Shown: positions 17,935 to 50,744 of the stretch, one piece after another
Layout of the letters: every line of letters begins with the position of its first letter
How positions within the stretch are numbered: the stretch's first letter is position 1
IMG/VR virus record: IMGVR_UViG_3300021375_000032
Coordinates: 1-56,694 of that record
Direction: 5' to 3' (one strand)
Source of the DNA: a virus
Taxonomy: Duplodnaviria; Caudoviricetes
DNA: 56,694 nt
Position numbers and translations under genes: made by a program
Notes under the pieces: generated by a model
The model's input: only the letters and a program-made list of their open reading frames with translations
What the model was told of the DNA's origin: nothing
Databases searched by the model: none

Positions 17935-17941
17935 TATTTAT
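17935..17941 (-). promoter_or_regulatory. Late promoter-like ATAAATA overlapping the stop of the giant gene
   Basis: ~20 nt upstream of the 17915 start. Confidence 0.55.
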
Positions 17942-26900: not shown

Positions 26901-29900
26901 TATCAATCTCGTACAATCCGTTAATATTATATGTTTGTGCTTCACGAACTCCGATGTAATCTCCTACAACAAAGTTTTCAATTGCCCACTTGTCTAAAGT
27001 TAGTTCAACTAACCTTAGTCTGTTTGTAGCAACTTCAGTAATAAGAGTGTTTATACCAATAACATTAACTTTTGATCTTATTAATTGTTTTACTGTCCAA
27101 GACTTATTGTCTGTGTCTGTTACCCATATAGTATTTCCAAGACTGATTAAATTAGTGTTAACTGATGCAAGATCTAATAAGTTGCCTACAACAAAATCAA
27201 CATCATCTTCATTTACATATCCTGAAGTTCGAATATACTCATTAGTTAAAGGTTTAGTCGGAAATGGTGCATGATCGTAGTCTGCAGGCTTATCAAATAC
27301 TTCATTTGGAAGTATTCTGTATATTTTATCAAAGTTAGTTGCAGGTAATGTGTTTACAAGTTCAACTGCTTGAGGAGATTCTTGCATTTTATCTTGTTTC
27401 AAGTTATATTCAACCTGCTGTACATCATCAACAGCACCGTAACGTCCAACTTGAATTGCCCACTCTTCATAGAATTCTAAATTGTCAGTTGTATTGCCTA
27501 GTGCATTAAACAATTTAGTAAACACATTTAGAGTGCCTTTGTCTGCTATCGCACCTCTATAGAATTTAAATTGACTTACATCGTCATTTATAATATTAGC
27601 AAGATATTGACGTTTTTGATATCCGATCAAATGCTGTGCCATTGTTTGCTGTTCGACATCAAAGCTATCTGAATCTAAATCGTAAAAATCGGTAAACTGT
27701 GTAATTCTATAATCAAAGTTAGTCATCAACTGTGACTCAGGCTTTTCGCTAAGTCTATACCAGAAATTAGAGTTAAAGTTTTGTGACCCTGATACATTAA
27801 TTGTTGCTACATAATAATATTGTTTGTATTTTACAATGTCACCGATATGATAATCTTTCCAAGCAGTCCAGTCAGTAAATCTTGCATCATCGTAAACAAA
27901 TCCAGGAATATTTAATCCACCGTTCCAGTTGTCTGATCTATAACCGTTAACACGAATACGCTCTTGTCTATATCCAGTTGCAGGATTATATATAGTATCA
28001 TTGAAGTCTGTAGTATTATCAAGTAATACTACATGTTCTTTTTGTACTAATGGCAATGCAACGTGATATAATCCTTCTTCAGTGCCTACTGTTTCAATAC
28101 CAAAGCTATTTTGATCTCTTAATAGACTATTAAATTCAGAATCTAAAAATAAACCGTCTGCCTTGAAAACATTATATCCGTAAAATTCATCTTTAATATT
28201 ATCAACTACATAGTAATCTCTCTTAAACTCTATTAAGTTTGCACCAGGACTTAAGGCAATTAACGAGTTATTTGCCCATCCTTGTGTTGTCCAGAACAAG
28301 AACTGTTTTGCTGCTGTATTCCAGTTTTCAACTTCATTAGTGCCGCTAATAACATTTTCAAAACTAAATCCAATCTCTAGTTGTCGTGCGCTATAACCTA
28401 ATATAAAGTCAACAACTTCTTGTGCTGTACTAAAACGACTTCCGTATTGCAAACGTTTAACTGAAGTAGTATCAAAGTTTTTCTTAAACTCTGCTGTTCG
28501 GCCGCCGGTAAGAGGCAATGCAGGAAGTTTGACAATATTGTCTGTATCAAATGTTTTGCTACTAGTAAATGAATCAATAACTCTGTAGTAAGCATTGTTA
28601 TGTAAAATTACTTCTCCACTTAGGTATGAAGTATTTGAATCCCATAGAACTACTTTTTCACTTATGCCGCCAACTGTTACTACACTTGCTGACGAATCCT
28701 GTATTGAACTATAATATTCAAAATAAGGTTTTTCTAAATTATAACCCCTAACAATATAGCCTAGTTCAGCCCGTTCAACTACTATTCCACTATACACTGC
28801 TAGTTTGCTGGGACTACTTGTATTTAAGAAAACTTGATAATTTTCTTGTGGTACAAAAATGCCATCTTGAGTAAGAGATTGTGTAGGAGATCTACTATCA
28901 AGTACTAGATTAAATTTTTCCTTACTTGTAAACCCTGCAATTTTAATAGCAAGTTGGTTAGTAATGTTTTTTAATTCAGTTTTATAATCTTCATAAACTG
29001 TTAGAATATCACTTGCAACTAGATTGTAAATGTAATTTACTAATCCAGATGTATTAGTTCTAACATCTGATTTAAATGTATTCGGTAAGTTTAAATCTTT
29101 GAGAACGATCGGTTTGTTAGTTGTTATATCAACCCATTGATTTGCTAAATTTTTGGATATTCTTGAAATATCAAACCCTAATCCCATAGTTTTTGCAGGT
29201 TGATTTAACAACATTGTTGTTAATACTGAAAACGGATATTCAGAACTTCTGCGCCATGCATTTTCTACAGGGGTATAATCTCCAAATTTAAAATTATTAG
29301 TTGCACTTCTTATATCAAAATCTTTAGCATATCTTGAATCTAATGGTGATAATAATTTTCCAGTACTATCAACTGGGATAAAATTAGTTAACCCAGGGCG
29401 AGCATATTTAGGATTAATTCTTGTATTATTAGGCTCTGCAATTTTTCCTTCTTCGAGATCTTTCCAAAGTACTAAGTTATCGCCTGTATAAGGAGCAGGA
29501 CCATACACTGTATTCCACCAGTTTGGTTTAGTTGTTATACCAAGCATCTCCCAAGGATGACTGTGCGGACGGTCAGTGTCAAATGCTCTTACATATACAC
29601 TTCTCCAAAATCCTGGATTTATATTTCCGGATGGAGACTTAGTTTCACTATAGTTAAATGTCCAATTATTAGTTCTGTCATAAAACGTATTATCAGTATA
29701 ATTTGTGTCATTTAAATTTTCTAAAAGCCAACTTTGAAAATTGCCAATCAATGTATTATCAATTTCTGTTTTTGTAAATTCATTTGTTCTAAATTCGCCG
29801 CCGATAAAAGCATTAACATCTAATCTATCAGTCGAATATTCAGCTTTAATATTATTAAAAATTCTTTTTTCAAATTCCAACAGCAATTCGTCTCTAAAAT

Positions 29901-32900
29901 CTTTATATGCTTTTATATAGCTGCCGTCGTGTCCGCGAATAAATGCAACACCGATAGGATATTCATCTATTTCAATGTCGTCATTACCTGCCAATATGGC
30001 ACCTTCGGTAGGAACATAAAACAATTTATTCATACCTACAAAAGTATAAGATTTCGATGCTGCGCCTTTGCCTGCTGCACTCTTTGATGTATATACTGGA
30101 TAGAACCAACCTCTGTTACCAGTTGCTTCATCTTCGCCGTATATTTTAAACGGACCAGATGTTTCAGGAACAGTAGCTTGCACTGTGTCGTCAATAGTTA
30201 ATTCGGGATAGTATTTTGGATATAAACCTAGCTTACTTGGAGTAGGTGCAATAAAACTTCCGTCGGTTTTGTCATACTCGTGTATTTCAATTATATCATT
30301 TTCTACTTGTCCGGCATCAATCGAAACGTATCCTGCTACATTAAAATTATAATCTTTGGTGTGTGTTAATTGTTCATTGTTTAAATAAACAAGAATACTT
30401 TTTGAACTTAAATCAGTTAAATTAAAATTATTAGTAACAGGATAATCACGAGTCCTTGCATCATAAACAGTATATTCAATTTTGTTAAATGCTCCTGTCG
30501 CAATCATATCTGAGAAATAAAATGGCTGTGATTGTAACTTATCACTATTAATTGTTTTTAATATAAGATCAACATGTTGTTTTACAGGACCATCATACCC
30601 TAAAGACGAAGCAGTATCTAAAAATATTTTTTTATATCTTGTATACTCTTTATTTGAATATTTTAATGCTTTTATAATATTATATTTTTTATTTGTTATA
30701 TGATATAACGGTAAATTAATGGTACCACTATGCTTAACAAAACGCTTGCCATACTTATCAAGGTCGCCTAAGTCACGTAGATTGCTCTGTCCTAAATAAT
30801 TTCCAGTATATCTAGGAATATCTTCCAACATACTATCAACGTGGTCAATTACTTCACCAAGAGTAAATTGACTAACATCATCATTTAACGGATTACGTTC
30901 TAGGTTATACGGAAATTCATAATAGCCATTGGTATTTTTTATAATTTTAGTATCTGTTTTAATCTTAATAACATCATTTATTTCTAAAGGTTTATTAAAA
31001 ACAACCACTACGTTATCATTGCTTTTGTCAATTGTGTAATCAGTATTAATTAATTTTAGTTTATTATTAACAAACACAACTACTTTTAAATCTGTAATAC
31101 TACTAGAGTTGTCATAACAATTAATTACAAAATTATTATTTTGGATATCTGATGCAGAATATTGTGTTATAACATATTGTTTACTAATTGTTGGTGTACT
31201 ACTAAATCCATTAACATATGAAAAATCAGTTAAACTTTTATACTTTTTTAAATATCCACTATCAATTTTTTGTGTATATAAATCTTCTTCTGTTTGGTAT
31301 GTAAATGTATCATTTAATAGATTAAAATCAAATACAATATCTCCGGAGTTTTCGATAGATTTATAACTTAGTGCAAAGCCTAATTCAGTATCAACTGTGC
31401 CTTCGCCTTGTGCATAAGAAAATAGTTTAGTTCCTTTAAATGTAGACGATCCGTAATATGTTTCATCGCTATAATTATTCCCATTAACATCACATACTTC
31501 GAACATAGGAGTTTGATTTCGTGTTGTTTTTTCTTGTGCAAGTGTCCATTTGCCGCCTTGATAGTGGTAACTTTTACCTGAATTTTTTACACCCTGTGTA
31601 ACTAATACAGTTTCAAGATCGATTGGATTAGTATCGTTAGTTTCGACTAAACTAATTTGTCTATTATTGCTGATATTAACAAATTTTACTTGATATATTT
31701 TTCCACTTACTAGTATATCAGTATCTGCTGCAAACAATACTCGCATATTGTCAGCAAGTTCTACGCCGTCAATATTATATCCTAATTGTCCTTCGATTGT
31801 ACTAAAAACATCTGTAGTAAAAGTGTCAATTAAATCAACATCTTGTTTAGCAACAGCTCCAAAATTATTTAACTTTAGTCCAGCTTCAAATTCAATAATT
31901 GGGCGTTTTGCACGAGTTAATTCGTCAACGTTAATTGGCAAATCATTATATTCAAAACTTTTTATAATTACGTCTTTGTGATGCCATCTATTATAACGAC
32001 TCCAAGCATTTCTATCCAGTGAAGCTCTATTAACAACAATGTAATCTTTTTCTGTTGCATATGCACTTGCATCACTAAATGGCAACGTATCAAAATTATC
32101 ACTGTCAAATGCAATACGTTTTGTATCATTGTATGCTGCTGGAATAATTAAGTTACTGTCCTTAATTAGTTTAATTTTGTCGCCAACACCTTCTACATAC
32201 CAATCGTTAGTTTCATACTCAACGGGTAAGACATCACCTTGAAATCTAATTTTCATTCCGTTAGATAATTCAACACCGTTTGCACTTAAATAAGTTTTCT
32301 TGCCTAATATTTCTTCAGCAACATTAAGAAATGCATTTTCTTCAATGTCATAAATTCTAAATTGTCCACTTGTATCTACAGCATTTTTACTAATATAAAA
32401 TAATCTGTCAGGAGCATTAAAAGGTATTGTAAATTCAATTGTGCCTTTTTCAATGTATGCAACTGCTACTTCATCGCCTTCTTCACCTAACTTACGAATA
32501 CCGTCTGGATATAGTGTACTAACATTATCGTCGTCAGCAAAAGTAACACTTCCGCCGCTTGGTAGAATAATATATTCTCCTTGGTCGTATTCATTACCGT
32601 ACAGAACTGTATCAAATAATCCATCGGCACGTAGTCCTTCTGTTCCTGCTGTTAAAATTGCAGTACCAGGAGTAAATGTTCTACTAATAGCAATAGCCAT
32701 AGGATGACCAGGTGCATCAATTTCAAAACGATATGTTTGGCCGCGATATAATTTTAAATTAGGATTACGTGTTAATCCGTCATTAAACACGTAAGAAATG
32801 TTATCGCCTTGATCCTCGGTAGTAACAGTATATGTACTAACAATGTCTCTACTTTGACCTCTTACAGGTATACTAATAGGCCCATTTGGCATCCAATAGT

Positions 32901-33342
32901 ATTCACGGAAGTTTACAAATTTGTCCCAATCAATATTTGGGTTCCATGCATAAGTTTCTTGGCTGTTTAATCTACTATGATTGTCTGTGTTTGCACCAAA
33001 TACACCTAACTGTCCAATATAATCATTATAGTCTTTATAGAAAGTTACATTGTTGTAGTTGTCTTTGATAACTGTCGCAGGCTCTAACTGATAGTTTGTT
33101 CTGTCGGCAGTTACATCATCTATATAATTGTCTGTAGTTTTATATGCTTTAGCAGTTGTTCTGCCATAGTAGCCGTTAATTTTTTCTGCAACACCTGGCT
33201 GTATAAGCTGGTCTAGTGTACCTTGTAAAAACTTTTTATTTGCTTGTGTTCTAAAGAATTTAGGTAAAAAATCACTCGCAGTAATTTTATTGTTTTGTCC
33301 TGGTACTGGCAGGGCGCTTTCGTTTTGATCATTTTTAGCCAT
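17938..33342 (-). CDS. Giant (5134 aa) multidomain virion protein, probable baseplate wedge/receptor-binding scaffold
   Basis: Uninterrupted 15.4-kb ORF coupled (TAATG) to the gp6-like gene. It has beta-propeller-type FG repeats, GSGY-type repeats, W/F...Y..GD.V.Y modules and C-terminal GDGST..F modules. Confidence 0.75.
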   Translation of the reverse strand: MAKNDQNESALPVPGQNNKITASDFLPKFFRTQANKKFLQGTLDQLIQPGVAEKINGYYGRTTAKAYKTTDNYIDDVTADRTNYQLEPATVIKDNYNNVTFYKDYNDYIGQLGVFGANTDNHSRLNSQETYAWNPNIDWDKFVNFREYYWMPNGPISIPVRGQSRDIVSTYTVTTEDQGDNISYVFNDGLTRNPNLKLYRGQTYRFEIDAPGHPMAIAISRTFTPGTAILTAGTEGLRADGLFDTVLYGNEYDQGEYIILPSGGSVTFADDDNVSTLYPDGIRKLGEEGDEVAVAYIEKGTIEFTIPFNAPDRLFYISKNAVDTSGQFRIYDIEENAFLNVAEEILGKKTYLSANGVELSNGMKIRFQGDVLPVEYETNDWYVEGVGDKIKLIKDSNLIIPAAYNDTKRIAFDSDNFDTLPFSDASAYATEKDYIVVNRASLDRNAWSRYNRWHHKDVIIKSFEYNDLPINVDELTRAKRPIIEFEAGLKLNNFGAVAKQDVDLIDTFTTDVFSTIEGQLGYNIDGVELADNMRVLFAADTDILVSGKIYQVKFVNISNNRQISLVETNDTNPIDLETVLVTQGVKNSGKSYHYQGGKWTLAQEKTTRNQTPMFEVCDVNGNNYSDETYYGSSTFKGTKLFSYAQGEGTVDTELGFALSYKSIENSGDIVFDFNLLNDTFTYQTEEDLYTQKIDSGYLKKYKSLTDFSYVNGFSSTPTISKQYVITQYSASDIQNNNFVINCYDNSSSITDLKVVVFVNNKLKLINTDYTIDKSNDNVVVVFNKPLEINDVIKIKTDTKIIKNTNGYYEFPYNLERNPLNDDVSQFTLGEVIDHVDSMLEDIPRYTGNYLGQSNLRDLGDLDKYGKRFVKHSGTINLPLYHITNKKYNIIKALKYSNKEYTRYKKIFLDTASSLGYDGPVKQHVDLILKTINSDKLQSQPFYFSDMIATGAFNKIEYTVYDARTRDYPVTNNFNLTDLSSKSILVYLNNEQLTHTKDYNFNVAGYVSIDAGQVENDIIEIHEYDKTDGSFIAPTPSKLGLYPKYYPELTIDDTVQATVPETSGPFKIYGEDEATGNRGWFYPVYTSKSAAGKGAASKSYTFVGMNKLFYVPTEGAILAGNDDIEIDEYPIGVAFIRGHDGSYIKAYKDFRDELLLEFEKRIFNNIKAEYSTDRLDVNAFIGGEFRTNEFTKTEIDNTLIGNFQSWLLENLNDTNYTDNTFYDRTNNWTFNYSETKSPSGNINPGFWRSVYVRAFDTDRPHSHPWEMLGITTKPNWWNTVYGPAPYTGDNLVLWKDLEEGKIAEPNNTRINPKYARPGLTNFIPVDSTGKLLSPLDSRYAKDFDIRSATNNFKFGDYTPVENAWRRSSEYPFSVLTTMLLNQPAKTMGLGFDISRISKNLANQWVDITTNKPIVLKDLNLPNTFKSDVRTNTSGLVNYIYNLVASDILTVYEDYKTELKNITNQLAIKIAGFTSKEKFNLVLDSRSPTQSLTQDGIFVPQENYQVFLNTSSPSKLAVYSGIVVERAELGYIVRGYNLEKPYFEYYSSIQDSSASVVTVGGISEKVVLWDSNTSYLSGEVILHNNAYYRVIDSFTSSKTFDTDNIVKLPALPLTGGRTAEFKKNFDTTSVKRLQYGSRFSTAQEVVDFILGYSARQLEIGFSFENVISGTNEVENWNTAAKQFLFWTTQGWANNSLIALSPGANLIEFKRDYYVVDNIKDEFYGYNVFKADGLFLDSEFNSLLRDQNSFGIETVGTEEGLYHVALPLVQKEHVVLLDNTTDFNDTIYNPATGYRQERIRVNGYRSDNWNGGLNIPGFVYDDARFTDWTAWKDYHIGDIVKYKQYYYVATINVSGSQNFNSNFWYRLSEKPESQLMTNFDYRITQFTDFYDLDSDSFDVEQQTMAQHLIGYQKRQYLANIINDDVSQFKFYRGAIADKGTLNVFTKLFNALGNTTDNLEFYEEWAIQVGRYGAVDDVQQVEYNLKQDKMQESPQAVELVNTLPATNFDKIYRILPNEVFDKPADYDHAPFPTKPLTNEYIRTSGYVNEDDVDFVVGNLLDLASVNTNLISLGNTIWVTDTDNKSWTVKQLIRSKVNVIGINTLITEVATNRLRLVELTLDKWAIENFVVGDYIGVREAQTYNINGLYEIDSINLNTVRIRVPLDNEITDLEVENNESYVISTLRTIRVDNVAEINAATNQTIYDNQKLWIDTYNDEWAVLENNPVYLNSQSIFNTSEYDSTDQKFSDSVAITHDNNNVFVSAPDDANGKVSYYRRTREQNNLILDQEIIFEDDNLFNISNIKFGKSISVSPDGEYLVVGIPNASSVKTKLAYKIDANTSQETFDFQPDATYTKNDIVRYRESLWKTNREILPAIENQPFSTFDTYINIAAQADSDSTTLNLLVAGDPGLENNTTSHLLVRAPKDMYIGTKPGDILNLFWNQRSYTYPTLDNYIPFDGNIPLINKDFISQEHTIVEKIDHVLFLETFISLPVVGSIVTTNTGSAEVAYVSTRRDSAVVYLKNTNGVFDVTGELFIEELDFVGFYTEELTYTPSDAVAGYWMINTGFEYSNNGIYYDTGRGLVYADIKLQGSVRDLNEYYNIQDTVGAIGVYVTNKNQASYIEQLSYRGDPAGADAQDGVEQDVLSNKWVVRVGKTYSDTLTVGDTTEMRLYNLDNRIIDVAGAGFTYNNINKQQTIVDLWDGYIDFELSEFDFQGFAFEPQVGDIVEDIQYPRDGQGGLALTSITTSSAEVMFMQRKFNNVRIYLKVLSGEWLEQSNIGRFQIRRKANTSLRGATDVDRAIGTITDINNSIILGNSLVGKLVVFENTTNFDIVETPKIIDEEYWFFDETTELGIERLPNPPFSLNKDYIQIYNIPANEFGTEKTIENEGAVAIYRKLRDGTYRFQNVFVSEYREANRNFGETVKIVQTGNYYTLLVSSNSVVLPGDDSTERRAHPGSIELFRHGTKLTDSFKGEYKITAYEVNDIVIYKDNYYICQKATTNSQNVITDPIYWNNISWKHGKDSNYRGVFDNTYTYKKENIVVQDNKLWKAATNIAVGASIPSESNNSWTLLSTNIDYVGYLPNLTANAFYNEEVFDPIENILEFSKNFDISNDAQVLVVTSKQQEADNDSTVNTKLVIYRAVGDQFQVDQIITAPDNVTAWADKVALNPAGTQLAISSMLVDTNKVNQGVVYVYTQTDGTFVLTQTLTPPQNEESEGFGFGLDFGTDNLVVSSLNGDQIIPTTFDVSVYAETEDTVTTFDRDFTNFRNVKLDKGVVYVYEEVNESLIYSEQFVYPLTQTTFGENIYANSNHVYIGMPDQFNDSTKGQLLDFRKNKGVFGWNILKEGITPVDVDNIQGAFLYNKRENRIVSYIDYIDPVQGKIAGPADQEITFKTPFDPAVYNTGNTSDSSVDPNRAWTDKHVGQVWWNIGTAKFTHAYQGSTTFQKNNWNKLTPGARIDVYEWVESNLIPSIRDGIADTPDGIANGISGTSLFGDARYSTKITYDEFSKTFNNKYYFWIVNSVVVPVLENRRLSIRDIAALIENPRIQAYPFLSLLSNNKFVLNNFDTFVDNDDLVLNIKYSTGPKKLQNIHSQYKLISDGLETSKPDPDIERKWFDSLIGFDDNNRIVPDPTITVKNRYGVQNRPRQSMFVNRFEALKQTIERINLKLSENLIVDEYDISSLTQKDTLPTLISKEYDLAIDTFADLKFVSTNKITPAVLTPVITNGRISRINITDSGRGYKVAPSFKINGEGVDADFDIIINSLGQITDVNITNTGSGYNSSTTITIRPFTVLINADESVQDKWALYSWNGTEWYRRKIQSYNVELYWNYIDWYAEGYNQFTNINDTVLGSYQIPSLSNNIGDITKIENVGSGGWLLLRKIDNQDSEDYTINYETIGRQNGTIQFKDTLYDYSKNAVGYSNRSFDSNFFDNNPSVELRIILETIRDKLFTNALEIEYNQLFMAALRYVMSEQQSVDWMFKTSFVKAKHNRESLSQQDITFNNDNLQSYQDFVEEFKPYSTKIREFVSEYTAIDPTNSSISDFDLPPFYNKLIKSIESSNAIIVDNEIQKENLDISVYPRKNWKDNLGYQITEIQLGSSGSGFTFEPTVTLVGGGGSGATAKAYLGYGKITSIKITNPGNGYTSAPSVVISGSQVETGTPARATAVLGNGVVRTPSIKIKFDRTSGTFTFDTLAKTETFTGTGFENRFFLEWPMDLDIKKVNVYVDNILQLRSKYTFENIKNTDKSYVREQGKILFATPPKLNSVIRVEYNIPLSMLNAEDRIKFAYNPIAGMYGNDLAQLMTGVDYGGVEVRSFDFSSPSGFDSLPWYTDNWDEFDDTFEDEVFTADGSTIAVQLSAPLEDGVVYNLYKNGVRIDDPNYDAGTPTNVYAITNSITGDGVTDIVYVQDLGIELLDNDVFVVRKTTSDGSVLPDAESYDTALTGGDLAYTTARGIAAEEIIVDGDGFVTPTTSAGPEEVVPGQVLDTLDIKVYTRDSQGQGVINSQSYIMDSTVTYDLGVTPNSSDAVIVKVNNIILPQTEYTINWSANTVTLDTAVVGAELNIVTVSQGIQNILDFGQLVGDGSTTEFETTVDWEENASVYASINGVQQTVVAFKSDTTSKTVIRFEEVVLNGAVINYTVFSADEQINYSQITKDVFTGDGSTREFTLASAPLYAIPSEHNIIVKVDNKILNAGYNIQYTIPENNQREYPLEIFQMPQGSLDVADVKIFLNGEEKFTPLDWRFEIANSSITLTDDVGIPGNLIEMYVITDGDYRINGKSITLDTAPINGAVVEIIQFANHDLLGIERINYDVVSRTTLIPEDVDYITYNRLTVGEVTLRKPAVDAQYVWVSVNGELLTPSVDYSVTDDKLKVQLVRQPAANDVIDIIHFTAPVSKPKFSYRQFKDMLNRTHFKRLDKSAAKLAQSLNYYDLRIELDDASELSEPNKGQNLPGVIFIEGERIEYFVKEENTLRQLRRGTLGTGVKDTYATDTKVFDQNISKTVPYKDQILSYNASYVEDGTKKIGADGLTATFEIGYPVASINEIEVFVGGVRMRKTALDVFNYATALDSPDGDTSVAADFTFNADTNEITLLTTPAKDTRVTVVKKVGQSWTILGTALGDTENSIARFVRAGTSELPE

Positions 33343-45289: not shown

Positions 45290-46144
45290 ATGTCAATGAG
45301 ACCTAAAAATTATCTGAATAATAAAGATATACTTAAAGAAATACACAAATCAAAAAATCAATTCAACAGCTATCTTGCACCAGAATATGCAGATTACGAT
45401 ATTATTCTGCCAAGTGTTGACAAAATTAACCGTTTGACTGTTGCAGAAGCAAAGCGTAACAAAGCAAAAAAGCTATCATCTGCTGAATACGAACGTCGTA
45501 AAGGACTCGGGGAGAAGGTTAAGCAAGCAGAGTGCGAAACACTTGCATCTGAAATTACAAAAGAAGAACTAATCTTCCGTGTAATGACGTTTGATCATAT
45601 TCCAGAAGAGCCAGGTCGTAAAAAGAACCCAAAGACTGTTGCCGATACACGAGTTAAACTTCCGTTTCCTCCCTTTCAACATTACAAATATAACGACGAA
45701 GGCGAAATTGTACTAGTAGGCAAAAGTCACTGGGTAGGCGGCATGGACAACGGACATTTTAGTCATCAACATGGTAAAGCAACAGACAAACTTGCTATGA
45801 TGTGGTTAAAACTTGTTGATCGTTATGCTACTCGCGGCAATGTTCGTGGTTACACTTACAATGACGAAATGAAAGGTCAAGCTATCTTGCAACTTTCACA
45901 AATTGGACTACAATTTGATGAATCTAAGTCAGATAATCCGTTTGCTTACTACACAGCAGCAGTTACTAATAGTTTTGTTCGTGTTATCAACATAGAAAAA
46001 CGCAATCAAAATATTAGAGATGACATTCTTGAAATGAACGACTTGAATCCAAGTTACACGCGGCAAAATGCAGGCGAATGGGAAGCAAGTGTGAAGCGAA
46101 ACGAAGAAGCACCATTAACAGAATACACAAATGCCAAAAAATAG
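45290..46144 (+). CDS. gp55: Late-transcription sigma factor (T4 gp55-like)
   Basis: NYLNNK.IL.EI, N.RGYTY.DEM...A.LQ......FDE.KS.NPFAYYT....NSF.R....EK; sits next to gp47/gp46 as in T4-like phages. The start may be the second Met (45296). Confidence 0.85.
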   Translation: MSMRPKNYLNNKDILKEIHKSKNQFNSYLAPEYADYDIILPSVDKINRLTVAEAKRNKAKKLSSAEYERRKGLGEKVKQAECETLASEITKEELIFRVMTFDHIPEEPGRKKNPKTVADTRVKLPFPPFQHYKYNDEGEIVLVGKSHWVGGMDNGHFSHQHGKATDKLAMMWLKLVDRYATRGNVRGYTYNDEMKGQAILQLSQIGLQFDESKSDNPFAYYTAAVTNSFVRVINIEKRNQNIRDDILEMNDLNPSYTRQNAGEWEASVKRNEEAPLTEYTNAKK

Positions 46145-46201: not shown

Positions 46202-47218
46202 TTGTTTAAAAAAGCTGCGGTGTTTACGGACATCCATTTTGGTTTGAAGGGCAATAGTCGTGTTCATAACGAAGATTGCGAAGAATTTATTGATTGGTAT
46301 ATAGAACAAGCACAAGCTGCCGGTTGCGAGACTGGCATCTTTTGCGGAGACTGGCATCACAATCGTAATTCACTTAATCTTACCACTATGGATGCAACAA
46401 TCAGAAGCATGGAGAAGCTAGGTGCTGCATTTGAGAAGTTTTACTTCTTTGATGGTAATCACGACTTGTATTATAAAGACAAACGTGACGTTAACAGTAC
46501 TGCTTTTGCTAAACACATTCCAGGAATTACATTTGTAGACGAAATTCTTATTGAAGATGACGTTGCACTTGTTCCTTGGCTGGTTGGAGACGAGTGGAAG
46601 AAGATGAGTGACATAAAAACAAAGTATTTGTTTGGTCACTTTGAACTTCCTAGCTTCTATATGAACGCTCTAGTGCGTATGCCAGATCACGGTGACTTAA
46701 AACCTGAGCATTTTAAGCATCAAGACTATGTTTTTAGCGGACACTTCCACAAAAGACAAAAACAAGGTGCTATTCACTATATCGGCAATGCATTTCCGCA
46801 CAATTATGCTGATGTAGGCGATGACGACCGTGGTATGATGATACTTGACAAGGAAAATAACCTAGAACCAGAGTTTATTAACTGGCCTGATTGTCCTAAG
46901 TACCGTACTGTTACCCTTAGTCACTTGATTGACAATGCAGATACCTTTATTAAGAGTAAAATGTACCTGCGTGTAACACTTGACTTGCCTATTAGCTACG
47001 AAGAAGCAAGTTTTATCAAAGAAACATTCATTAACAACTACGGATGTCGCGAAATTACACTGATTCCGCAAAAACAACTAGAAGAAATGAGTACAGAGCT
47101 TGATATTGCACAGTTTGAAAGTGTAGATCAAATAGTAAGCAACGAAATTGCAGAACTAGACACTAACAACTATGATAAAAGTATGTTGCTACAGATTTAT
47201 AATGGATTAGACCACTAA
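46202..47218 (+). CDS. gp47: Recombination endonuclease subunit, Mre11/SbcD-like (T4 gp47)
   Basis: Metallophosphoesterase motifs DIHFG, GDWHH, GNHD, GHFE and SGHFH. Confidence 0.95.
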   Translation: MFKKAAVFTDIHFGLKGNSRVHNEDCEEFIDWYIEQAQAAGCETGIFCGDWHHNRNSLNLTTMDATIRSMEKLGAAFEKFYFFDGNHDLYYKDKRDVNSTAFAKHIPGITFVDEILIEDDVALVPWLVGDEWKKMSDIKTKYLFGHFELPSFYMNALVRMPDHGDLKPEHFKHQDYVFSGHFHKRQKQGAIHYIGNAFPHNYADVGDDDRGMMILDKENNLEPEFINWPDCPKYRTVTLSHLIDNADTFIKSKMYLRVTLDLPISYEEASFIKETFINNYGCREITLIPQKQLEEMSTELDIAQFESVDQIVSNEIAELDTNNYDKSMLLQIYNGLDH

Positions 47219-48988
47219 ATGATTAAGATCAAAGACTTAACCGTAAAAAACTTCATGAGTGTGGGCAATCAGACTCAAGCAGTAGATTTTGACCACGAAC
47301 AATTAACACTTGTACTAGGTGAGAACTTAGATCAAGGTGGCGATGACAGTGGATCACGTAATGGTACTGGTAAAACTACTATTATTAACGCATTGAGCTA
47401 TGCATTATATGGACAAGCGTTAACTAATATCAAACGTAACAATCTTATTAACAAAACTAACTCAAAAGGCATGTTAGTTACGCTTCAATTTGAAAAAGAC
47501 GGCAATAATTATCGTATTGAACGTGGACGTTCACCAAATATCTTTAAATTCTATATGAATGATCAAGAAAAGTTGGTAGATGAGTCACAAGGCGACAGTA
47601 GACAGACACAAGACGATGTAAACACACTGTTAGGCATGAGTCATGACATGTTTAAGCACATTGTTGCACTGAATACCTACACAGAACCGTTCTTGAGTAT
47701 GAGAGTTAACGATCAAAGACAGATTATTGAACAGTTGTTAGGTATTACTATCCTTTCAGAGAAGGCTGATGCACTAAAAGAACAAACACGTCAGACAAAA
47801 GATGCTATCACTGAAGAAACTCTAAAGATCAACGCTATTCAAACAGCTAATGAGAAGATTGAAGGTAGCATCGACGGACTTAGAAGAACACAACGTGCAT
47901 GGATTGCAAAGAACAAGCAAGATCAAGACAAACTTGCAGGTGCAATTGAAGAATTAGAGAAGTTAGACATTGAAACTGAACTGGATGCACACGAAAAATT
48001 AGCAAACTGGACTGAGCATAACAATGCCATCCTTGCTCTTAGAAAAGAATTAGGCACACTTGAGCCTGCACTGCAACGTGCTGACAAAAGTGTAACCAAA
48101 GCAGAAAAAGATATTGCAGAACTAGAAGATGCTACTTGTTATACTTGTGGTCAAGAACTTCATGCAGACAAAAAAGCAGAGATTGCAGAACGTAAAGGCA
48201 AGGAACTAGAAGATGCTATTGCTTATCAAACAGAAATTACTGGAAAAGTAAAAGATGTTGCACTTGCTCTTGAAGAAATTGGTGACATCAACGGTAAGCC
48301 CACTACATTCTATGACACTGCTAAAGAAGCATACGAACACAGAAGCAATGTAGACAATCTAAAGAAAGCTCTTGAAGATAAAAGTCAAGAAACTGATCCA
48401 TATGCTGCACAAATTGTTGAGCTAGAAGAAACTGCTATTCAAAAAGTAGACTGGAACAGTGTTAACGAACTTACAAGTTACAAAGAACACCAAGAGTTCT
48501 TGCTCAAGTTGCTAACAAACAAAGATAGTTTTATTCGAAAAAAGATTATTGATCAAAACTTAGCGTACTTGAACAATAGACTTACATATTATCTTGACAA
48601 ACTAGGATTGCCACATCAAGTGTTGTTCCAAAACGATTTGAATGTTGAGATTACTCAACTAGGACAGGACTTAGACTTTGACAACTTGTCACGTGGCGAA
48701 CGTAACAGACTTATCTTAGGTCTCAGCTTTGCGTTCCGTGATGTTTGGGAAAGCTTGTATCAAAATATCAACTTGTTGTTCATTGACGAGCTTATCGACA
48801 GTGGCATGGACACTGCTGGTGTTGAAAATAGTTTAAGTGTCCTCAAGAAGATGGCAAGAGAGCGTAGCAAAAACATCTATCTTATCTCGCACAAGGACGA
48901 ACTTATCGGTCGTGTTAATCATGTGTTGAGAGTTGTAAAAGAAAATGGATTTACAAGTTATGCAAATGACTTGGAGGTAGTGGAATGA
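47219..48988 (+). CDS. gp46: Recombination ATPase subunit, Rad50/SbcC-like (T4 gp46)
   Basis: KNFMSVGN, Walker A NGTGKT, coiled coil with CYTC zinc hook, LSRGE signature, Walker B LLFIDE and ISH. Confidence 0.95.
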   Translation: MIKIKDLTVKNFMSVGNQTQAVDFDHEQLTLVLGENLDQGGDDSGSRNGTGKTTIINALSYALYGQALTNIKRNNLINKTNSKGMLVTLQFEKDGNNYRIERGRSPNIFKFYMNDQEKLVDESQGDSRQTQDDVNTLLGMSHDMFKHIVALNTYTEPFLSMRVNDQRQIIEQLLGITILSEKADALKEQTRQTKDAITEETLKINAIQTANEKIEGSIDGLRRTQRAWIAKNKQDQDKLAGAIEELEKLDIETELDAHEKLANWTEHNNAILALRKELGTLEPALQRADKSVTKAEKDIAELEDATCYTCGQELHADKKAEIAERKGKELEDAIAYQTEITGKVKDVALALEEIGDINGKPTTFYDTAKEAYEHRSNVDNLKKALEDKSQETDPYAAQIVELEETAIQKVDWNSVNELTSYKEHQEFLLKLLTNKDSFIRKKIIDQNLAYLNNRLTYYLDKLGLPHQVLFQNDLNVEITQLGQDLDFDNLSRGERNRLILGLSFAFRDVWESLYQNINLLFIDELIDSGMDTAGVENSLSVLKKMARERSKNIYLISHKDELIGRVNHVLRVVKENGFTSYANDLEVVE

Positions 48989-49185
48989 TAGAAGATGACG
49001 TACATGATATGCTTATAAAAGCGTATCTAGATTATTTTAAAGCAAACGAGAAGTTTGAAAAGATGAACAGTGTGCGGACACATCGCACAGTACGAAGATG
49101 CTTGCGCGATATTCGAGCATTAGCAAAAGAACGTGCAGAAGAAATACATGAAAAACACAACACAACAAGGCAAACCAGAAAGTAA
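48985..49185 (+). CDS. Small basic helical hypothetical protein
   Basis: 66 aa; ATGA overlap with the gp46 stop; GGAGG RBS. Confidence 0.7.
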   Translation: MIEDDVHDMLIKAYLDYFKANEKFEKMNSVRTHRTVRRCLRDIRALAKERAEEIHEKHNTTRQTRK

Positions 49186-49217
49186 TTAAAATAAGTCAGG
49201 CACTGGTAAGTATACTC

Positions 49218-49667
49218 ATGCAGTGGACTTACCGAGGACAAACAATTGACACTATACCAGACGAGTATGAAGGATTTGTTTATCTTATTACCAATACCAC
49301 TACAGGCCAAAAATACATAGGCAAGAAACTAGCAAAGTTTAAAACTACTAAGCCACCCCTAAAAGGCAAGAAAAATAAAAGACGCGGCTACAAAGAAAGC
49401 GACTGGAGAGACTATTACGGATCCAGTGATAGATTAAATGCAGACGTAGCGGCACTAGGCGAAGATAAGTTTACAAGAGAAATATTATACCTATGTAAAG
49501 GTAGAGGCGAAATGTCCTACATAGAGGCACGAGAACAGTTTGATCGTAGAGTACTCGAAACAGATGATTACTACAATGGAATCATTAATGTTAGAGTTGG
49601 CGGCTCAGACAAACTCAAACAGGCATTGCTAGAACATCACATCCAGGCAAAACAATCCAACACATAA
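49218..49667 (+). CDS. Short GIY-YIG-family endonuclease
   Basis: GFVYLITN....KYIGKK, YYGSS, catalytic-type E (YIEAREQ) and YYN; no separate C-terminal DNA-binding domain. Confidence 0.8.
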   Translation: MQWTYRGQTIDTIPDEYEGFVYLITNTTTGQKYIGKKLAKFKTTKPPLKGKKNKRRGYKESDWRDYYGSSDRLNADVAALGEDKFTREILYLCKGRGEMSYIEAREQFDRRVLETDDYYNGIINVRVGGSDKLKQALLEHHIQAKQSNT

Positions 49668-50040
49668 GGTTGGCGGGCTAGTTCGAAAATACCGCTGTGG
49701 AAAAAGCTACCGTATAGGAGCACACGTAACATACTGATCGACTCCCCAGAGGGAGGAAGCCATCAAACAAATTGGGCTCACAGGTTGGTATAGATAGATT
49801 GTTGGCTGTCGAAAAACTGCACATTACACATAAAAACTCTTTAGCAACAGGAACGAAGCGAGAGGTAGTTGGAAACAACGATGTCGACGTAGGTTGGGAA
49901 AGGTCAGAGCCCATTGTGTAGCAGTATAACAAACACCTACTTCCAATGTCTATGGCTGGATAAGACTCACATGAAGTTATATCTTTTTAGACGACGGGGC
50001 CGTAACAGGTTCCGTCTGACTGAAACAATCTACATGAAAT
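49668..50040 (+). ncRNA. Candidate large structured non-coding RNA of unknown family
   Basis: No credible ORF; visibly GC-richer than its flanks; several local hairpins and at least five long-range complementary pairs, several mutually crossing (see findings). Boundaries and strand are inferred. Confidence 0.6.
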
Positions 50041-50045
50041 TAATA

Positions 50046-50152
50046 CAATATTACATTCGTAATATTGCTTGTTCATATATAAATCATTTAATTAAAACGA
50101 AGTATATGTAGTTTGAGCGTTAGCGAAAACTAATATCTACGAAGTAGATATT
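50046..50152. repeat. Cluster of perfect inverted repeats/hairpins
   Basis: caatattac-attc-gtaatattg (50046-50067); tagttt...aaacta (50109-50132); aatatctac-gaa-gtagatatt (50132-50152). Confidence 0.8.
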
Positions 50153-50160
50153 CAAACAGT

Positions 50161-50170
50161 TAAATAAATA
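50161..50170 (+). promoter_or_regulatory. Late promoter-like TAAATAAATA
   Basis: ~25 nt upstream of the 50196 start, followed by an AAGGA RBS. Confidence 0.6.
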
Positions 50171-50195
50171 CATTACAGTATTAAGGAATACCACG

Positions 50196-50744
50196 ATGAA
50201 AATGAATGACTTACTTGTTGAATCACAGCTTGATGAATTTATACCTCTGACTAAACAAGGCAGAGCTATTAAGAGAGCTGAGAAAGCAGGTGCTGCTGAT
50301 TTAAAGCAAACAGTGCAAGACTTAACAACTGAATTTGCAAGTATGTTAGGGACTCAAGGCAAGAAATTTAAAACTGCAACTACTGATGATGTTATTCAAT
50401 TTTTACAATCTAAAAAAGTAGACACTAAAAAAATTGATGCTAAACAGCCTATGGATTCAAAAAGAATTCAAACAATCTTTACTACGTTAGTTAAAGATAA
50501 AATGGGTGGTAAGAATGTTGCAGGCGCTGCTGATAAAGCTGAACAGCCGGCAACTGATCCTAAAGTATTAAAGACTGTGTATGCTCAAACTAAAGATGCG
50601 TTTGCTCAACTTAATATGAAAGAGAAAAGACGTTTACTTGCTGCTCTTGAAAAAGACATTTCTGCTAACGCTAGAAAGCCAGCAGCTAAAGCGCAACCTG
50701 CTCCGTCATCAAAGCCAAGAGTAAGAATAAAGCCACAAGCTTAA
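50196..50744 (+). CDS. Hypothetical Lys/Ala-rich protein
   Basis: 182 aa with RBS and late-like promoter; MKMNDLLVE-type N-terminus. Confidence 0.75.
   Translation: MKMNDLLVESQLDEFIPLTKQGRAIKRAEKAGAADLKQTVQDLTTEFASMLGTQGKKFKTATTDDVIQFLQSKKVDTKKIDAKQPMDSKRIQTIFTTLVKDKMGGKNVAGAADKAEQPATDPKVLKTVYAQTKDAFAQLNMKEKRRLLAALEKDISANARKPAAKAQPAPSSKPRVRIKPQA

What the first reader, a model, noticed from the sequence alone, without database searches (positions are those of the whole stretch)
49207..50040. Minimal GIY-YIG nuclease immediately followed by a ~370-nt, apparently multi-pseudoknotted RNA: candidate nuclease-RNA system
Seen: the largest non-coding gap in an otherwise tightly packed window begins right at the GIY-YIG stop (49667) and is GC-richer than its flanks. 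Local hairpins: ctccc-caga-gggag (49742-49755), gttg-GAAA-caac GNRA loop (49868-49879), gacggggcc-gtaaca-ggttccgtc with two G-U pairs (49993-50016). Long-range pairs: agccat 49758-63/atggct 49952-57; tgggctc 49773-79/gagccca 49907-13; tagattgtt 49795-803/aacaatcta 50024-32; actgc+tacaca 49816-30/tgtgtagcagt 49915-25; gtaggt 49889-94/acctac 49935-40. Several of these cross, implying pseudoknots or alternative folds. G-U pairs and the GNRA loop favour a plus-strand RNA. The 149-aa nuclease lacks an appended DNA-binding domain but carries a K/R-rich insert (KTTKPPLKGKKNKRRGYK). Known: I-TevI/Seg homing endonucleases use extra DNA-binding domains; HEARO/omegaRNA elements pair nucleases with structured RNAs; GOLLD and ROOL are large phage-associated RNAs. 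Inference: this is a co-transcribed ribonucleoprotein (possibly RNA-guided or RNA-regulated nuclease) or a new ribozyme-sized ncRNA. I do not recognise it as a known family.
Basis: partly seen in the sequence, partly recalled or inferred. Interest (0 to 1): 0.9.

Follow-up and report, generated by a model that had tools for sequence, protein, structure and literature searches.

The report
New phage RNA beside GIY-YIG nuclease
Next to a very small DNA-cutting enzyme gene, marine giant phages carry a large, conserved, knotted RNA of a kind not yet catalogued, which shows the same short variable sequence twice, as a guide would, though its function is unknown.

Summary
The non-coding stretch after the GIY-YIG gene is a real structured RNA on the + strand, about 49657-50066. 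It starts inside the last codons of the nuclease gene and ends at a terminator-like hairpin. Folding energy alone is no better than shuffles (z -0.67). Covariation is strong: 26 of 71 pairs have compensatory changes, against 5-8 in slid controls. This includes two pseudoknots.

Three long-range pairings (B, C, D) show no covariation.

Rfam 15 gives no match for the window or for relatives, and four literature searches found no description.

The order gp46, small basic ORF, GIY-YIG, RNA holds in 105 of 107 loci found by an RNA motif. It persists in more distant phages, where the RNA body is unalignable.

All these RNAs keep a 3' module in which one variable 7-10 nt sequence occurs twice around a hairpin. 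The two copies are identical in 109 of 113 sequences, across 12 variants. No complementary partner lies nearby.

The RNA also occurs without the nuclease (5 loci), and the nuclease without the RNA (Melnitz-type phages).

Best reading: a new RNA family genetically coupled to the nuclease that recognises something in trans. An RNA-guided nuclease is possible but unproven.

The parts
48985..49185 (+). 66-aa basic ORF between gp46 (SbcC-like) and the nuclease. It is conserved at this place in distant relatives and fused in frame to the nuclease in some metagenomic proteins.
   Evidence: ORF. Homologous small ORFs in L311 and L323. Fused forms P0001 and P0010. Atlas lead: Hc1 histone-like family on 10-18% of members of two of the three listed nearest clusters (a lead only).
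49206..49237 (+). Hairpin GGTAAGT...ACTTACC that encloses the nuclease start codon. Possible translational control.
   Evidence: Read directly from the sequence. The same arrangement is seen in about 7 of the 18 other loci printed. Not tested further.
49218..49667 (+). Minimal GIY-YIG nuclease, 149 aa, with a conserved K/R-rich insert.
   Evidence: Pfam PF19835, E 1.8e-35. PHROG 447, E 1.3e-39. AlphaFold2 model with pLDDT 82. The top PDB fold matches are the I-TevI catalytic domain, TM 0.59-0.60 on the target, but with E 0.73, which is not significant. 71 columns are invariant in 12 sequences.
49657..50066 (+). The structured RNA as a whole, from the 5' strand of helix Pa to the terminator-like hairpin.
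   Evidence: Conservation profile. Covariation. One-sided A-U to G-U changes fit the + strand only (helix 12).
49657..49662 (+). Pa 5' strand. It lies inside the last codons of the nuclease ORF and pairs with 49800-49805, which lies in the loop of H4. This makes pseudoknot 1.
   Evidence: 6 pairs, 98.2% paired, 4 pairs with compensatory change (8, 2, 7 and 3 sequences of 19).
49672..49725 (+). H1 (49672-76/49692-96), H2 (49697-99/49723-25) and the hairpin inside H2 (49706-11/49717-21).
   Evidence: All 5 pairs of the inner hairpin show compensatory change.
49731..49791 (+).
   Evidence: 6 of 9 pairs show compensatory change. Alternative forms of the insert appear in the alignments.
49793..49810 (+). 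H4 hairpin. Its loop (49800-05) is the 3' strand of Pa.
   Evidence: 3 of 5 pairs show compensatory change.
49816..49830 (+). It crosses H7, making pseudoknot 2.
   Evidence: All 6 pairs of 49825-30/49915-20 are compensatory. The outer part, 49816-20/49921-25, is misaligned in my alignments and remains tentative.
49837..49864 (+). H5 hairpin with an invariant loop containing AGGAACGAAG.
   Evidence: 99% paired, 3 pairs with compensatory change.
49866..49881 (+). H6, a hairpin of variable length. In the window it is short with a GAAA loop.
   Evidence: alignment. Lengths run from 12 to more than 110 nt (L007).
49883..49947 (+). Near-invariant core. It holds H7 (49886-94/49935-43), the invariant hairpin 49895-98/49910-13, and the 3' strand of H8.
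   Evidence: Conservation at or near 1.00. H7 has compensatory change in 2 pairs.
49969..49975 (+). R1: first copy of the variable 7-nt segment (ACATGAA).
49993..50016 (+). H10 hairpin between the two copies.
   Evidence: helix 12. In distant classes a hairpin of quite different sequence stands at the same place.
50017..50031 (+). Conserved linker TGACTGAAACAATCT. Its counterpart in distant RNA classes reads TGAATAAAACATCT or similar.
50032..50038 (+). R2: second copy of the variable segment.
   Evidence: identical to R1 in 109 of 113 distinct sequences.
50047..50066 (+). Terminator-like hairpin, AT-rich, followed by a short T-containing tail. Likely the 3' end of the RNA.
   Evidence: Variant sequences keep a hairpin here (listing). 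Column counts are only 66-80% paired because of alignment shifts. The terminator scan did not list it.
50108..50131 (+). Separate conserved hairpin with the loop GAGCGTTAGCGA. Not shown to belong to the RNA.
   Evidence: Conserved block. Stem variants UAGUUU/AAACUA and GUGUUA/UAACAC were read by eye.

Best explanation
This is a previously uncatalogued family of large structured RNAs, about 410 nt. It has two pseudoknots, a near-invariant core and replaceable peripheral hairpins.

Genomic setting. The RNA is encoded directly after a minimal SegE-type GIY-YIG nuclease gene and overlaps its stop codon. The carriers are a very abundant clade of uncultured marine T4-like or jumbo phages. The conserved order is SbcD, SbcC (gp46), small basic ORF, GIY-YIG, RNA.

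Inferred working part. I take the 3' module to be the working end. One variable 7-10 nt sequence (R) is presented twice, upstream and downstream of a hairpin. It sits in unpaired context as far as I can tell. Both copies stay identical through evolution and nothing nearby is complementary to them. I therefore infer that R pairs in trans with a nucleic acid that differs between phage lineages.

Most likely mechanism. The RNA, the nuclease and the small basic protein form one functional unit. The RNA is made with or just after the nuclease message and supplies sequence recognition or control for a nuclease that has no DNA-binding domain of its own.

Shown here: the RNA, its structure, its strand, its linkage to the nuclease and the twin variable segment.
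Inferred only: pairing in trans, co-transcription, and any physical or functional tie to the nuclease.
For: Structure:
- 71 pairs are 88.8% paired, against 36-44% when slid. 26 pairs show compensatory change, against 5-8 when slid. 0 of 500 shuffles reach the observed covariation.
- The 5' domain including Pa is 92.5% paired, against 28-43% when slid. 23 pairs are compensatory.

Novelty:
- No Rfam match at gathering score or at E up to 10.

Linkage:
- 105 of 107 motif-found loci with room have the nuclease 194-584 nt upstream.
- 75 of 76 gp46 loci have the nuclease.
- In distant phages the same gene order holds. There, 52 of 68 loci have at least 395 nt free of ORFs after the nuclease (group medians).

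The twin segment:
- R1 equals R2 in 109 of 113 sequences across 12 variants. Of 36 non-majority sequences, 33 are identical. Shuffles give a mean of 55 and a maximum of 67.
- An R-hairpin-R module is found in 51 of 52 loci with long non-coding regions. Controls give 27 of 207 shuffles and 6 of 68 coding stretches.

Other pointers:
- One contig (L218) has both the nuclease and the RNA core deleted.
- The small ORF is fused to the nuclease in P0001 and P0010.
- The RNA region is held by contigs of 14 metatranscriptome runs from 10 studies.
Against: - The RNA occurs without the nuclease in 5 loci of another phage type: L111, L118, L279, L280 and L281.
- The nuclease occurs without the RNA in Melnitz phages and 14 similar loci, where the ORF-free stretch has a median of 75 nt.
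- All linked loci share one ancestral gene order, so the counts are not independent events.
- Seven bases are too few to pick out a unique target.
- Two identical copies are not what known guide RNAs show.
- No target was found.
- The metatranscriptome evidence is contigs only, so transcription, RNA ends and strand are not shown.
- The fold of the single sequence is no better than shuffles.
- No binding test was made.
Confidence: 0.4

Rival explanations
1. The RNA is an independent trans-acting non-coding RNA gene. The GIY-YIG gene is a Seg-type free-standing homing endonuclease that has lodged at its 5' edge because the invariant RNA gene offers a stable homing site. T4 segB sits among tRNA genes in a similar way. 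On this view RNA and nuclease do not work together.
For: - The RNA exists without the nuclease and keeps its 5' motif ACAGAACATAAGG there.
- The nuclease exists without the RNA.
- The nuclease stop codon lies inside the conserved RNA 5' motif CATAAGG, as if the ORF had been added onto an older RNA.
- Third-codon identity to the window is higher in the nuclease (mean 0.70) than in neighbouring gp46 (0.55) in 34 loci. This fits exchange between phages.
- About 9 loci have an extra insert of about 300 nt between nuclease and RNA.
- The SegB precedent comes from the abstract of PMC2330249, seen in the listing.
Against: - The nuclease is fixed, not sporadic, in this clade: 75 of 76 loci.
- The pair stays adjacent although the genes on both sides vary.
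- It also stays adjacent across phages so distant that the RNA body no longer aligns.
- No DNA-binding domain is seen in the 149-aa protein.
- One contig has lost both parts together.
Confidence: 0.33
2. The RNA is a ribozyme of an intron-like or self-processing mobile element, and the nuclease is its homing enzyme, as with group I introns and I-TevI. The twin R segments would then be the processing or joining sites.
For: - The conservation pattern is ribozyme-like: invariant single-stranded blocks, covarying helices and replaceable peripheral hairpins.
- The order of strands in pseudoknot 2, with two hairpins (H5, H6) between, recalls P3/P7 with P4-P6. This comparison rests on my own knowledge of group I architecture.
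- RNA and nuclease each occur alone, as introns and their endonuclease genes do.
Against: - No match to Intron_gpI or any ribozyme family, even at E up to 10.
- No P8 hairpin between the 3' strand of H8 and the 3' strand of H7. An extra hairpin stands where group I has none.
- The 3' boundary reads AUCU, not G.
- The element lies between genes, and the flanking genes differ among loci.
- No internal sequence complementary to R was found.
- No joint between R1 and R2 was seen in the laid contigs (table 5).
Confidence: 0.1
3. The RNA is a cis-acting 3' untranslated region that stabilises or regulates the nuclease message or the next gene.
For: - No terminator-like site was found between the ORF and the RNA on the + strand.
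- The RNA overlaps the ORF end.
- A hairpin covers the nuclease start codon, which suggests tight control of this gene.
Against: - The same RNA stands without the nuclease in another phage type.
- The downstream genes differ between loci.
- About 410 nt with two pseudoknots and 30-nt invariant blocks is far more than known mRNA stabilisers need. This comparison rests on my own knowledge.
Confidence: 0.07

Closest known systems
OMEGA systems (TnpB or IscB with omega RNA; HEARO RNA, Rfam RF02033)
   Same: - A nuclease gene with a large structured RNA encoded next to it and overlapping the ORF end.
- A conserved scaffold plus a short variable segment.
- The setting is a mobile genetic element or phage.
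   Different: - The nuclease here is GIY-YIG, not RuvC or HNH.
- There is no Rfam match.
- The variable segment is only 7-10 nt, lies inside the conserved RNA and is present twice.
- No transposon ends were seen.
- RNA guidance is not shown.
Group I intron with a GIY-YIG homing endonuclease (T4 td intron and I-TevI)
   Same: - A GIY-YIG gene paired with a pseudoknotted RNA of ribozyme size in a T4-like phage.
- Each partner can occur alone.
- The nuclease model is closest to the I-TevI catalytic domain.
   Different: - The element does not lie within a gene.
- There is no P8, no terminal G and no Intron_gpI match.
- The nuclease lacks the I-TevI linker and DNA-binding domain.
T4 SegB, a free-standing GIY-YIG endonuclease in the tRNA gene cluster
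   Same: A Seg-type nuclease gene lodged among conserved structured RNA genes of a T4-like phage (abstract of PMC2330249, listing).
   Different: - Here the nuclease is fixed in the clade.
- It has no C-terminal DNA-binding part.
- It overlaps the RNA.
- The RNA is not a tRNA.
GOLLD and ROOL, large ornate RNAs found in phages and prophages
   Same: Large, complex phage-borne RNAs of unknown function that were recognised by covariation.
   Different: - No Rfam match to either.
- Different neighbours.
- Neither is known to me to have a twin variable segment.
IS110 bridge RNA
   Same: One structured RNA with two separate specificity segments. This comparison rests on my own knowledge.
   Different: - Bridge RNA loops bind two different DNAs. 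Here the two segments are the same.
- Bridge RNAs go with a recombinase, and no recombinase is present here.

Membership tests
GIY-YIG nuclease superfamily (protein) | GIY and YIG motifs about 10-11 residues apart, followed by conserved Arg, Glu and Asn | tested here: met
   - Pfam PF19835, E 1.8e-35 over the whole profile.
- FVY...KYIG, E103/E106 and N120 are invariant in 12 sequences.
- Assigning these residues to catalysis rests on my own knowledge.
GIY-YIG nuclease superfamily (protein) | GIY-YIG alpha/beta fold | tested here: inconclusive
   The AlphaFold2 model has pLDDT 82. The top three PDB matches are the I-TevI catalytic domain, TM 0.57-0.60 on the target, but with E 0.73-1.1.
Seg-type free-standing homing endonuclease | C-terminal DNA-binding domain after the GIY-YIG domain | tested here: not met
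   - Only 26 residues follow the domain, and they vary.
- The longer forms are N-terminal fusions or read-through.
Seg-type free-standing homing endonuclease | Sporadic presence among related phages | tested here: not met
   - 75 of 76 gp46 loci carry it.
- It is absent from the distant phages PA5oct and Phosso.
Group I intron (Rfam RF00028) | Match to the covariance model | tested here: not met
   No hit at E up to 10 in 1.4 kb of the window or in six small relatives.
Group I intron (Rfam RF00028) | Lies within a gene, with exons on both sides, and ends in G | tested here: not met
   The RNA lies between genes and its neighbours vary. The 3' boundary reads AATCT before R2.
Group I intron (Rfam RF00028) | P3/P7 pseudoknot with P4-P6 between them and P8 after P3' | tested here: inconclusive
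   The crossing helices H8 and H7 have H5 and H6 between them. There is no hairpin where P8 should be, and there is an extra hairpin at 49895-49913.
HEARO / omega RNA | Match to RF02033, and an adjacent IscB, IsrB or TnpB gene | tested here: not met
   No Rfam hit. The neighbour is GIY-YIG.
GOLLD, ROOL, tmRNA, RNase P RNA | Match to the Rfam models. For tmRNA, also ARAGORN. | tested here: not met
RNA-guided nuclease (general kind) | A variable segment of the RNA is complementary to a target that the nuclease cuts | not testable with these tools
   A variable segment exists, but no target was found. A biochemical test is needed.

The most novel reading that the evidence does not exclude
A GIY-YIG nuclease that takes its target specificity from an RNA. 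The minimal nuclease, with the small Hc1-like basic protein, would be aimed by the twin R segments of the RNA encoded at its 3' end. That would make it the first RNA-directed member of the GIY-YIG superfamily. It would also be a new type of guide, with two identical short seeds presented on a large ribozyme-like scaffold.
Probability: 0.2. Interest if true: 0.95.

Novelty: categorically new. Interest (0 to 1): 0.8.

Why it matters
- The RNA would add a large, complex class to the few known in phages. Its carriers are very abundant in the sea: at least 8000 clusters of the neighbouring nuclease at 90% identity, on contigs of up to 313 kb.
- Two identical variable segments held in step through at least 12 variants have no counterpart that I know of among described RNAs. 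They point to recognition of a partner by base pairing.
- If that recognition serves the adjacent minimal GIY-YIG nuclease, it would extend RNA-directed cutting to a fourth nuclease fold. It would also offer a very small enzyme for engineering.
- If it does not, the RNA is still a well-defined orphan. It has a testable working end and a clear set of natural variants for experiments.

Tried and rejected
- Known RNA families. Rfam at gathering score on the whole window found nothing. Rfam at E up to 10 on 48900-50300 gave only a chance tp2 hit at E 4.9. Six small related loci gave only chance miRNA and snoRNA hits. Five loci of the distant classes gave none. ARAGORN found no tRNA or tmRNA.
- R1 pairing with R2. 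RNAalifold proposed this through the CATG palindrome. I rejected it because variants change both copies alike and break the pairs, for example GCATAAAG twice and ACATAAT twice.
- A partner for R nearby. No exact reverse complement of 7-8 nt was found in the loci. No run of 6 or more pairs, G-U allowed, stood at a consistent place from -800 to +320. No other column covaries with the R columns.
- A third copy of R at the 5' edge of the cassette. The window has TACATGAAA at 49145, but the same place in relatives does not follow their R. In six distant loci only L317 has extra copies.
- R versus the nuclease start region: no relation.
- A decayed C-terminal DNA-binding domain as the origin of the gap. 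I rejected this because of 1-nt indels, compensatory changes and the nature of the longer protein forms.
- A small ORF across R1 and R2, or ribosome hopping. R1-R2 spacing ranges from 50 to 70 nt and is not a multiple of three. Some R variants also lack AUG.
- Pairing with a tRNA anticodon loop. I considered this because the identical core is 7 nt and its sixth base is invariant A. I left it as a lead because position 2 is C or G where a pyrimidine would be needed, and some variants would read stop codons. This argument rests on my own knowledge of tRNA.
- Helices H8a (49816-20/49921-25), H11 (49948-52/49988-92) and H12 around R1. Column counts fail (12% and 42% paired). In minimum-energy folds only 38 of 112 sequences have R1 free in a hairpin loop. 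These helices are tentative.
- RNAalifold on the 3' modules of 19 diverse loci predicted no pairs, because the 5' strands misalign.
- Cultured relatives. PA5oct and Phosso have no cassette after SbcC. blastn of the phage collection found only the Melnitz nuclease gene.
- Depth in metatranscriptome contigs is higher over 49270-49940 than over the flanks. The runs were chosen for holding this RNA and contigs cannot rank genes, so I draw nothing from it.
- phmmer against PDB sequences: no hit at E up to 1.
- Literature. Four full-text searches found no description of this RNA or of an RNA tied to a GIY-YIG nuclease. I read passages of PMC9602691, PMC13565253 and PMC10690425. The supplement of PMC10690425, with about 10,000 candidate phage RNAs, could hold this motif, and I could not see it.
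I therefore could not search whole long contigs for R targets or run a full R-scape-like analysis.
Full report
WHAT IS THERE

The window is one IMG/VR virus record of 56,694 bases, estimated 16% complete. Its SbcC-like protein is closest, at about 50% identity, to those of jumbo phages such as Pseudomonas phage PA5oct. At 44-49% it matches Sinorhizobium phage Phosso and Agrobacterium phage Atu_ph07.

Genes around the finding, all on the + strand:
- late sigma factor, 45290-46144
- SbcD-like, 46202-47218
- SbcC/gp46-like, 47219-48988
- a 66-aa basic ORF, 48985-49185
- the 149-aa GIY-YIG protein, 49218-49667
- a gap
- a 182-aa ORF of no known family, 50196-50744

The nuclease matches Pfam SegE_GIY-YIG over the whole profile (E 1.8e-35). 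Its AlphaFold2 model (pLDDT 82) has the I-TevI catalytic domain as best PDB match, although the Foldseek E-value of 0.73 is not significant.

THE OBSERVATION

The gap and its higher G+C are real. On its own the sequence folds no better than shuffles: z -0.67 on the + strand and +0.23 on the - strand. Comparative evidence overrides it.

THE RNA IS REAL

A search of viral contigs with the nuclease gave 597 relatives among 599 matched stretches. The best 80 were kept. In all of them the stretch after the gene aligns with the window at 72-88% identity, as far as each contig reaches.

The conservation profile shows near-invariant blocks at 49829-66, 49883-49916, 49965-76 and 50009-37. Variable stems and length-variable hairpins lie between them.

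On an alignment of 44 sequences RNAalifold found 57 pairs, 13 of them with compensatory change. My refined structure has 71 pairs in 12 helices.
- It is 88.8% paired, against 36-44% when the 3' partners are slid.
- 26 pairs have changes on both sides, against 5-8 when slid.
- 0 of 500 shuffles reach the observed covariation score.

A second alignment holds 19 more diverse 5' domains. There the structure is 92.5% paired, against 28-43% when slid, and 23 pairs are compensatory.

Several findings rule out a coding region. There are indels of one base. Hairpins are replaced by other hairpins. One-sided A-U to G-U changes occur that would be A-C mismatches on the other strand. The last point also fixes the strand as +.

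ANATOMY, IN WINDOW COORDINATES

- Pa (49657-62) pairs with 49800-05. Its 5' strand lies in the last codons of the nuclease ORF and its 3' strand lies in the loop of hairpin H4. This makes the first pseudoknot. Four of its six pairs are compensatory.
- H1, H2 with an inner hairpin, and H3 follow. H3 encloses an insert that takes at least three unrelated forms in relatives.
- After a GAAAAAC joiner comes H8 (49816-30 with 49915-25). It encloses H5, the variable hairpin H6 and the 5' strand of H7 (49886-94 with 49935-43).
- H7 and H8 cross, making the second pseudoknot.
- The stretch 49883-49916 is almost invariant.
- The 3' domain holds H10 (49993-50016) and a terminator-like hairpin (50047-66). 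Helices H11 and H12 around R1 remain tentative.

The hairpins 49742-55, 49868-79 and 49993-50016 hold. So do the long-range pairs 49816-30/49915-25 and 49889-94/49935-40.

The pairs 49758-63/49952-57, 49773-79/49907-13 and 49795-803/50024-32 show no covariation. The first two use the replaceable insert as one strand, while the other strand stays invariant where the insert is missing.

THE TWIN VARIABLE SEGMENT

The 7-nt sequence ACATGAA stands at 49969-75 (R1) and again at 50032-38 (R2), on either side of H10.
- In 113 distinct sequences the two copies are identical in 109.
- There are 12 different versions, for example ACATAAT, ACATGAT, ACGTGAA, GCATAAA, GTATGAA and ACAGAAA.
- Of 36 sequences with a non-majority R1, 33 have the same R2.
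- Dealing R2 out at random gives 55 identical on average and 67 at most.
- One of the four counted differences, L111, is an alignment gap. By eye both copies there read ATCATCAAGT.
- The sixth base is A in all 107 sequences of one alignment.

The changes are the same in both copies, not complementary. The two copies therefore do not pair with each other. I found nothing complementary to them nearby.

LINKAGE TO THE NUCLEASE

Of 117 new loci, 105 have the nuclease 194-584 nt upstream of the motif. Two have room but no nuclease, and 10 are cut off.

Starting instead from gp46, 75 of 76 loci have the nuclease, and the other has only 71 nt of room. 40 of the 76 also show the RNA core. The rest end too soon, except L218. 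In L218 both the nuclease and the RNA core carry internal deletions.

The link is not obligatory.
- Five loci of another phage type carry the RNA without any GIY-YIG (L111, L118, L279, L280, L281). There it lies between a 165-aa ORF and a putative small-terminase gene. That gene call rests on my reading of the sequence, with only a weak HTH match at E 0.098.
- Methylophilales phage Melnitz has the nuclease at another place in its genome and no RNA.

MORE DISTANT PHAGES

I used the Melnitz nuclease as query. Of the loci found, 68 have at least 450 nt downstream. These fall into about ten groups by the sequence after the gene.
- One group of 17, which includes the window, is this RNA.
- One group of 14 is Melnitz-like and one group of 2 has genes directly after the nuclease.
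- The remaining groups, 36 loci in all, have 483 to 1482 nt free of ORFs (group medians). Apart from L358, which shares a 12-nt core match, they have no detectable sequence similarity to this RNA.

The seven representatives I examined lie in the same gene order: gp46, usually the small ORF, nuclease, non-coding stretch. These are therefore the same locus in more distant phages, not independent associations.

All of them keep the 3' module: a copy of R, a stable hairpin of unrelated sequence, a linker like TGAATAAAACATCT, and the second copy of R. Versions of R include GGTGAAG, TGTCAAG, TGCCAAG, TGGTAAAGTT, AGATAATG, AGATGATG, TCGTGAT and GGGTAAT.

A simple detector searched for a direct repeat of at least 7 nt, 45-80 nt apart, around a hairpin of -12 kcal/mol or better.
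- It finds such a module in 51 of 52 loci of the groups with long non-coding stretches.
- Among the other groups it finds one in 5 of 14 Melnitz-like loci and in 0 of 3 others.
- In controls it finds one in 27 of 207 shuffles and in 6 of 68 coding stretches.
- In five loci (L349-L352 and L323) the detector kept a repeat other than the R pair.

OTHER POINTERS

- The nuclease is very conserved, with 71 invariant columns in 12 sequences that go down to 65% identity.
- Its third-codon identity to the window averages 0.70, against 0.55 for neighbouring gp46, in 34 loci. This fits either exchange between phages or extra constraint.
- The 66-aa ORF is fused in frame to the nuclease in the metagenomic proteins P0001 and P0010.
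- Two of the three listed nearest clusters of that ORF in the ESM Atlas carry the Hc1 histone-like family, on 10-18% of their members. This is a lead only.
- The core motif occurs in only 1 contig among one genome each of 185,579 prokaryote species, and that contig belongs to a metagenome-assembled genome.
- 14 metatranscriptome runs from 10 studies hold part of the RNA. These are contigs only, so they show presence in RNA libraries, not transcription, ends or strand.

WHAT IT IS AND HOW IT MAY WORK

Shown here:
- a new, large, doubly pseudoknotted RNA family on the + strand
- overlap with the nuclease ORF
- fixed next to it across a wide and abundant phage clade
- a conserved 3' module that presents one variable short sequence twice

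Inferred: because both copies are kept identical through many changes and have no partner in cis, R most likely pairs with something in trans.

My preferred reading (0.40) is that RNA, nuclease and small basic protein form one unit, in which the RNA gives recognition or control to a nuclease without a DNA-binding domain.

The main rival (0.33) is an independent RNA gene at whose edge a Seg-type endonuclease gene has settled. An intron-like ribozyme (0.10) and a cis-acting untranslated region (0.07) are less likely. The remainder is unassigned.

COMPARISON WITH KNOWN SYSTEMS

It works most like the OMEGA systems in layout: a nuclease gene, an overlapping scaffold RNA and a variable segment. It resembles the intron plus homing-endonuclease partnership in that each part can stand alone. 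It is a member of neither, because the defining features tested here were not met (see the membership table). I found no description in Rfam 15 or in four literature searches. The supplement of PMC10690425, which I could not see, may list it as an unnamed candidate.

LIMITS

- The 3' domain around R1 is not settled.
- No target of R is known.
- No experiment or raw-read data bear on expression or binding.

Noticed in passing
window 49206-49237: The hairpin GGTAAGT...ACTTACC encloses the nuclease start codon, and no Shine-Dalgarno sequence is evident. The same arrangement recurs in about 7 of the 18 other loci printed. It suggests translational control of the kind recalled for T4 homing endonuclease genes.
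   Followed up: partly
window 50108-50131: A conserved hairpin with the loop GAGCGTTAGCGA lies about 70 nt after R2. Its stem changes with compensation in relatives (UAGUUU/AAACUA against GUGUUA/UAACAC). Related GAGYG...ACGAA motifs follow the RNA in other phage types.
   Followed up: partly
L001-L080 and L201-L276, at places matching window 49700-49980: 27 of 80 contigs end 21-339 nt after the nuclease stop, several at exactly +139 or +146. The same happens in the gp46 set. The likely cause is assembly graphs breaking where invariant RNA blocks meet swappable hairpins (H3 insert, H6). It is not a genome end.
   Followed up: partly
L218:4510-5200: One contig carries both a broken nuclease gene (internal deletion and early stop) and an RNA lacking about 75 nt of its invariant core. 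This could be joint decay or an assembly error.
   Followed up: partly
proteins P0001 and P0010; window 48985-49667: The 66-aa basic ORF is fused in frame to the nuclease in some metagenomic proteins. The ESM Atlas gives an Hc1 histone-like lead for it. It may be the missing nucleic-acid-binding part.
   Followed up: partly
L094, L098, L101, L113, L129, L130, L146, L156: About 300 extra nt lie between the nuclease and the RNA, putting the motif 495-584 nt after the gene. In L113 the junction sequence ATATAACAGCACATAA is duplicated on both sides of the insert.
   Followed up: no
window 49200-49210 and 49663-49670; loci printed: A motif like ATAGGC or CATAAGG stands about 20-25 nt before the nuclease start in many loci. 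It stands again at the 5' start of the RNA in all classes. It may be a promoter or processing signal.
   Followed up: no
window 17938-33342 (- strand): A single ORF of 5134 aa.
   Followed up: no
L278:6411-7424 (Sinorhizobium phage Phosso): A 1-kb unannotated stretch lies after the Holliday junction resolvase gene, near SbcC. It looks G+C-rich and full of hairpins. It has none of this RNA's motifs.
   Followed up: no
L086, L091, L107, L148: These loci keep the RNA core and 3' module but have a wholly different 5' domain, and the nuclease tail differs with it.
   Followed up: partly
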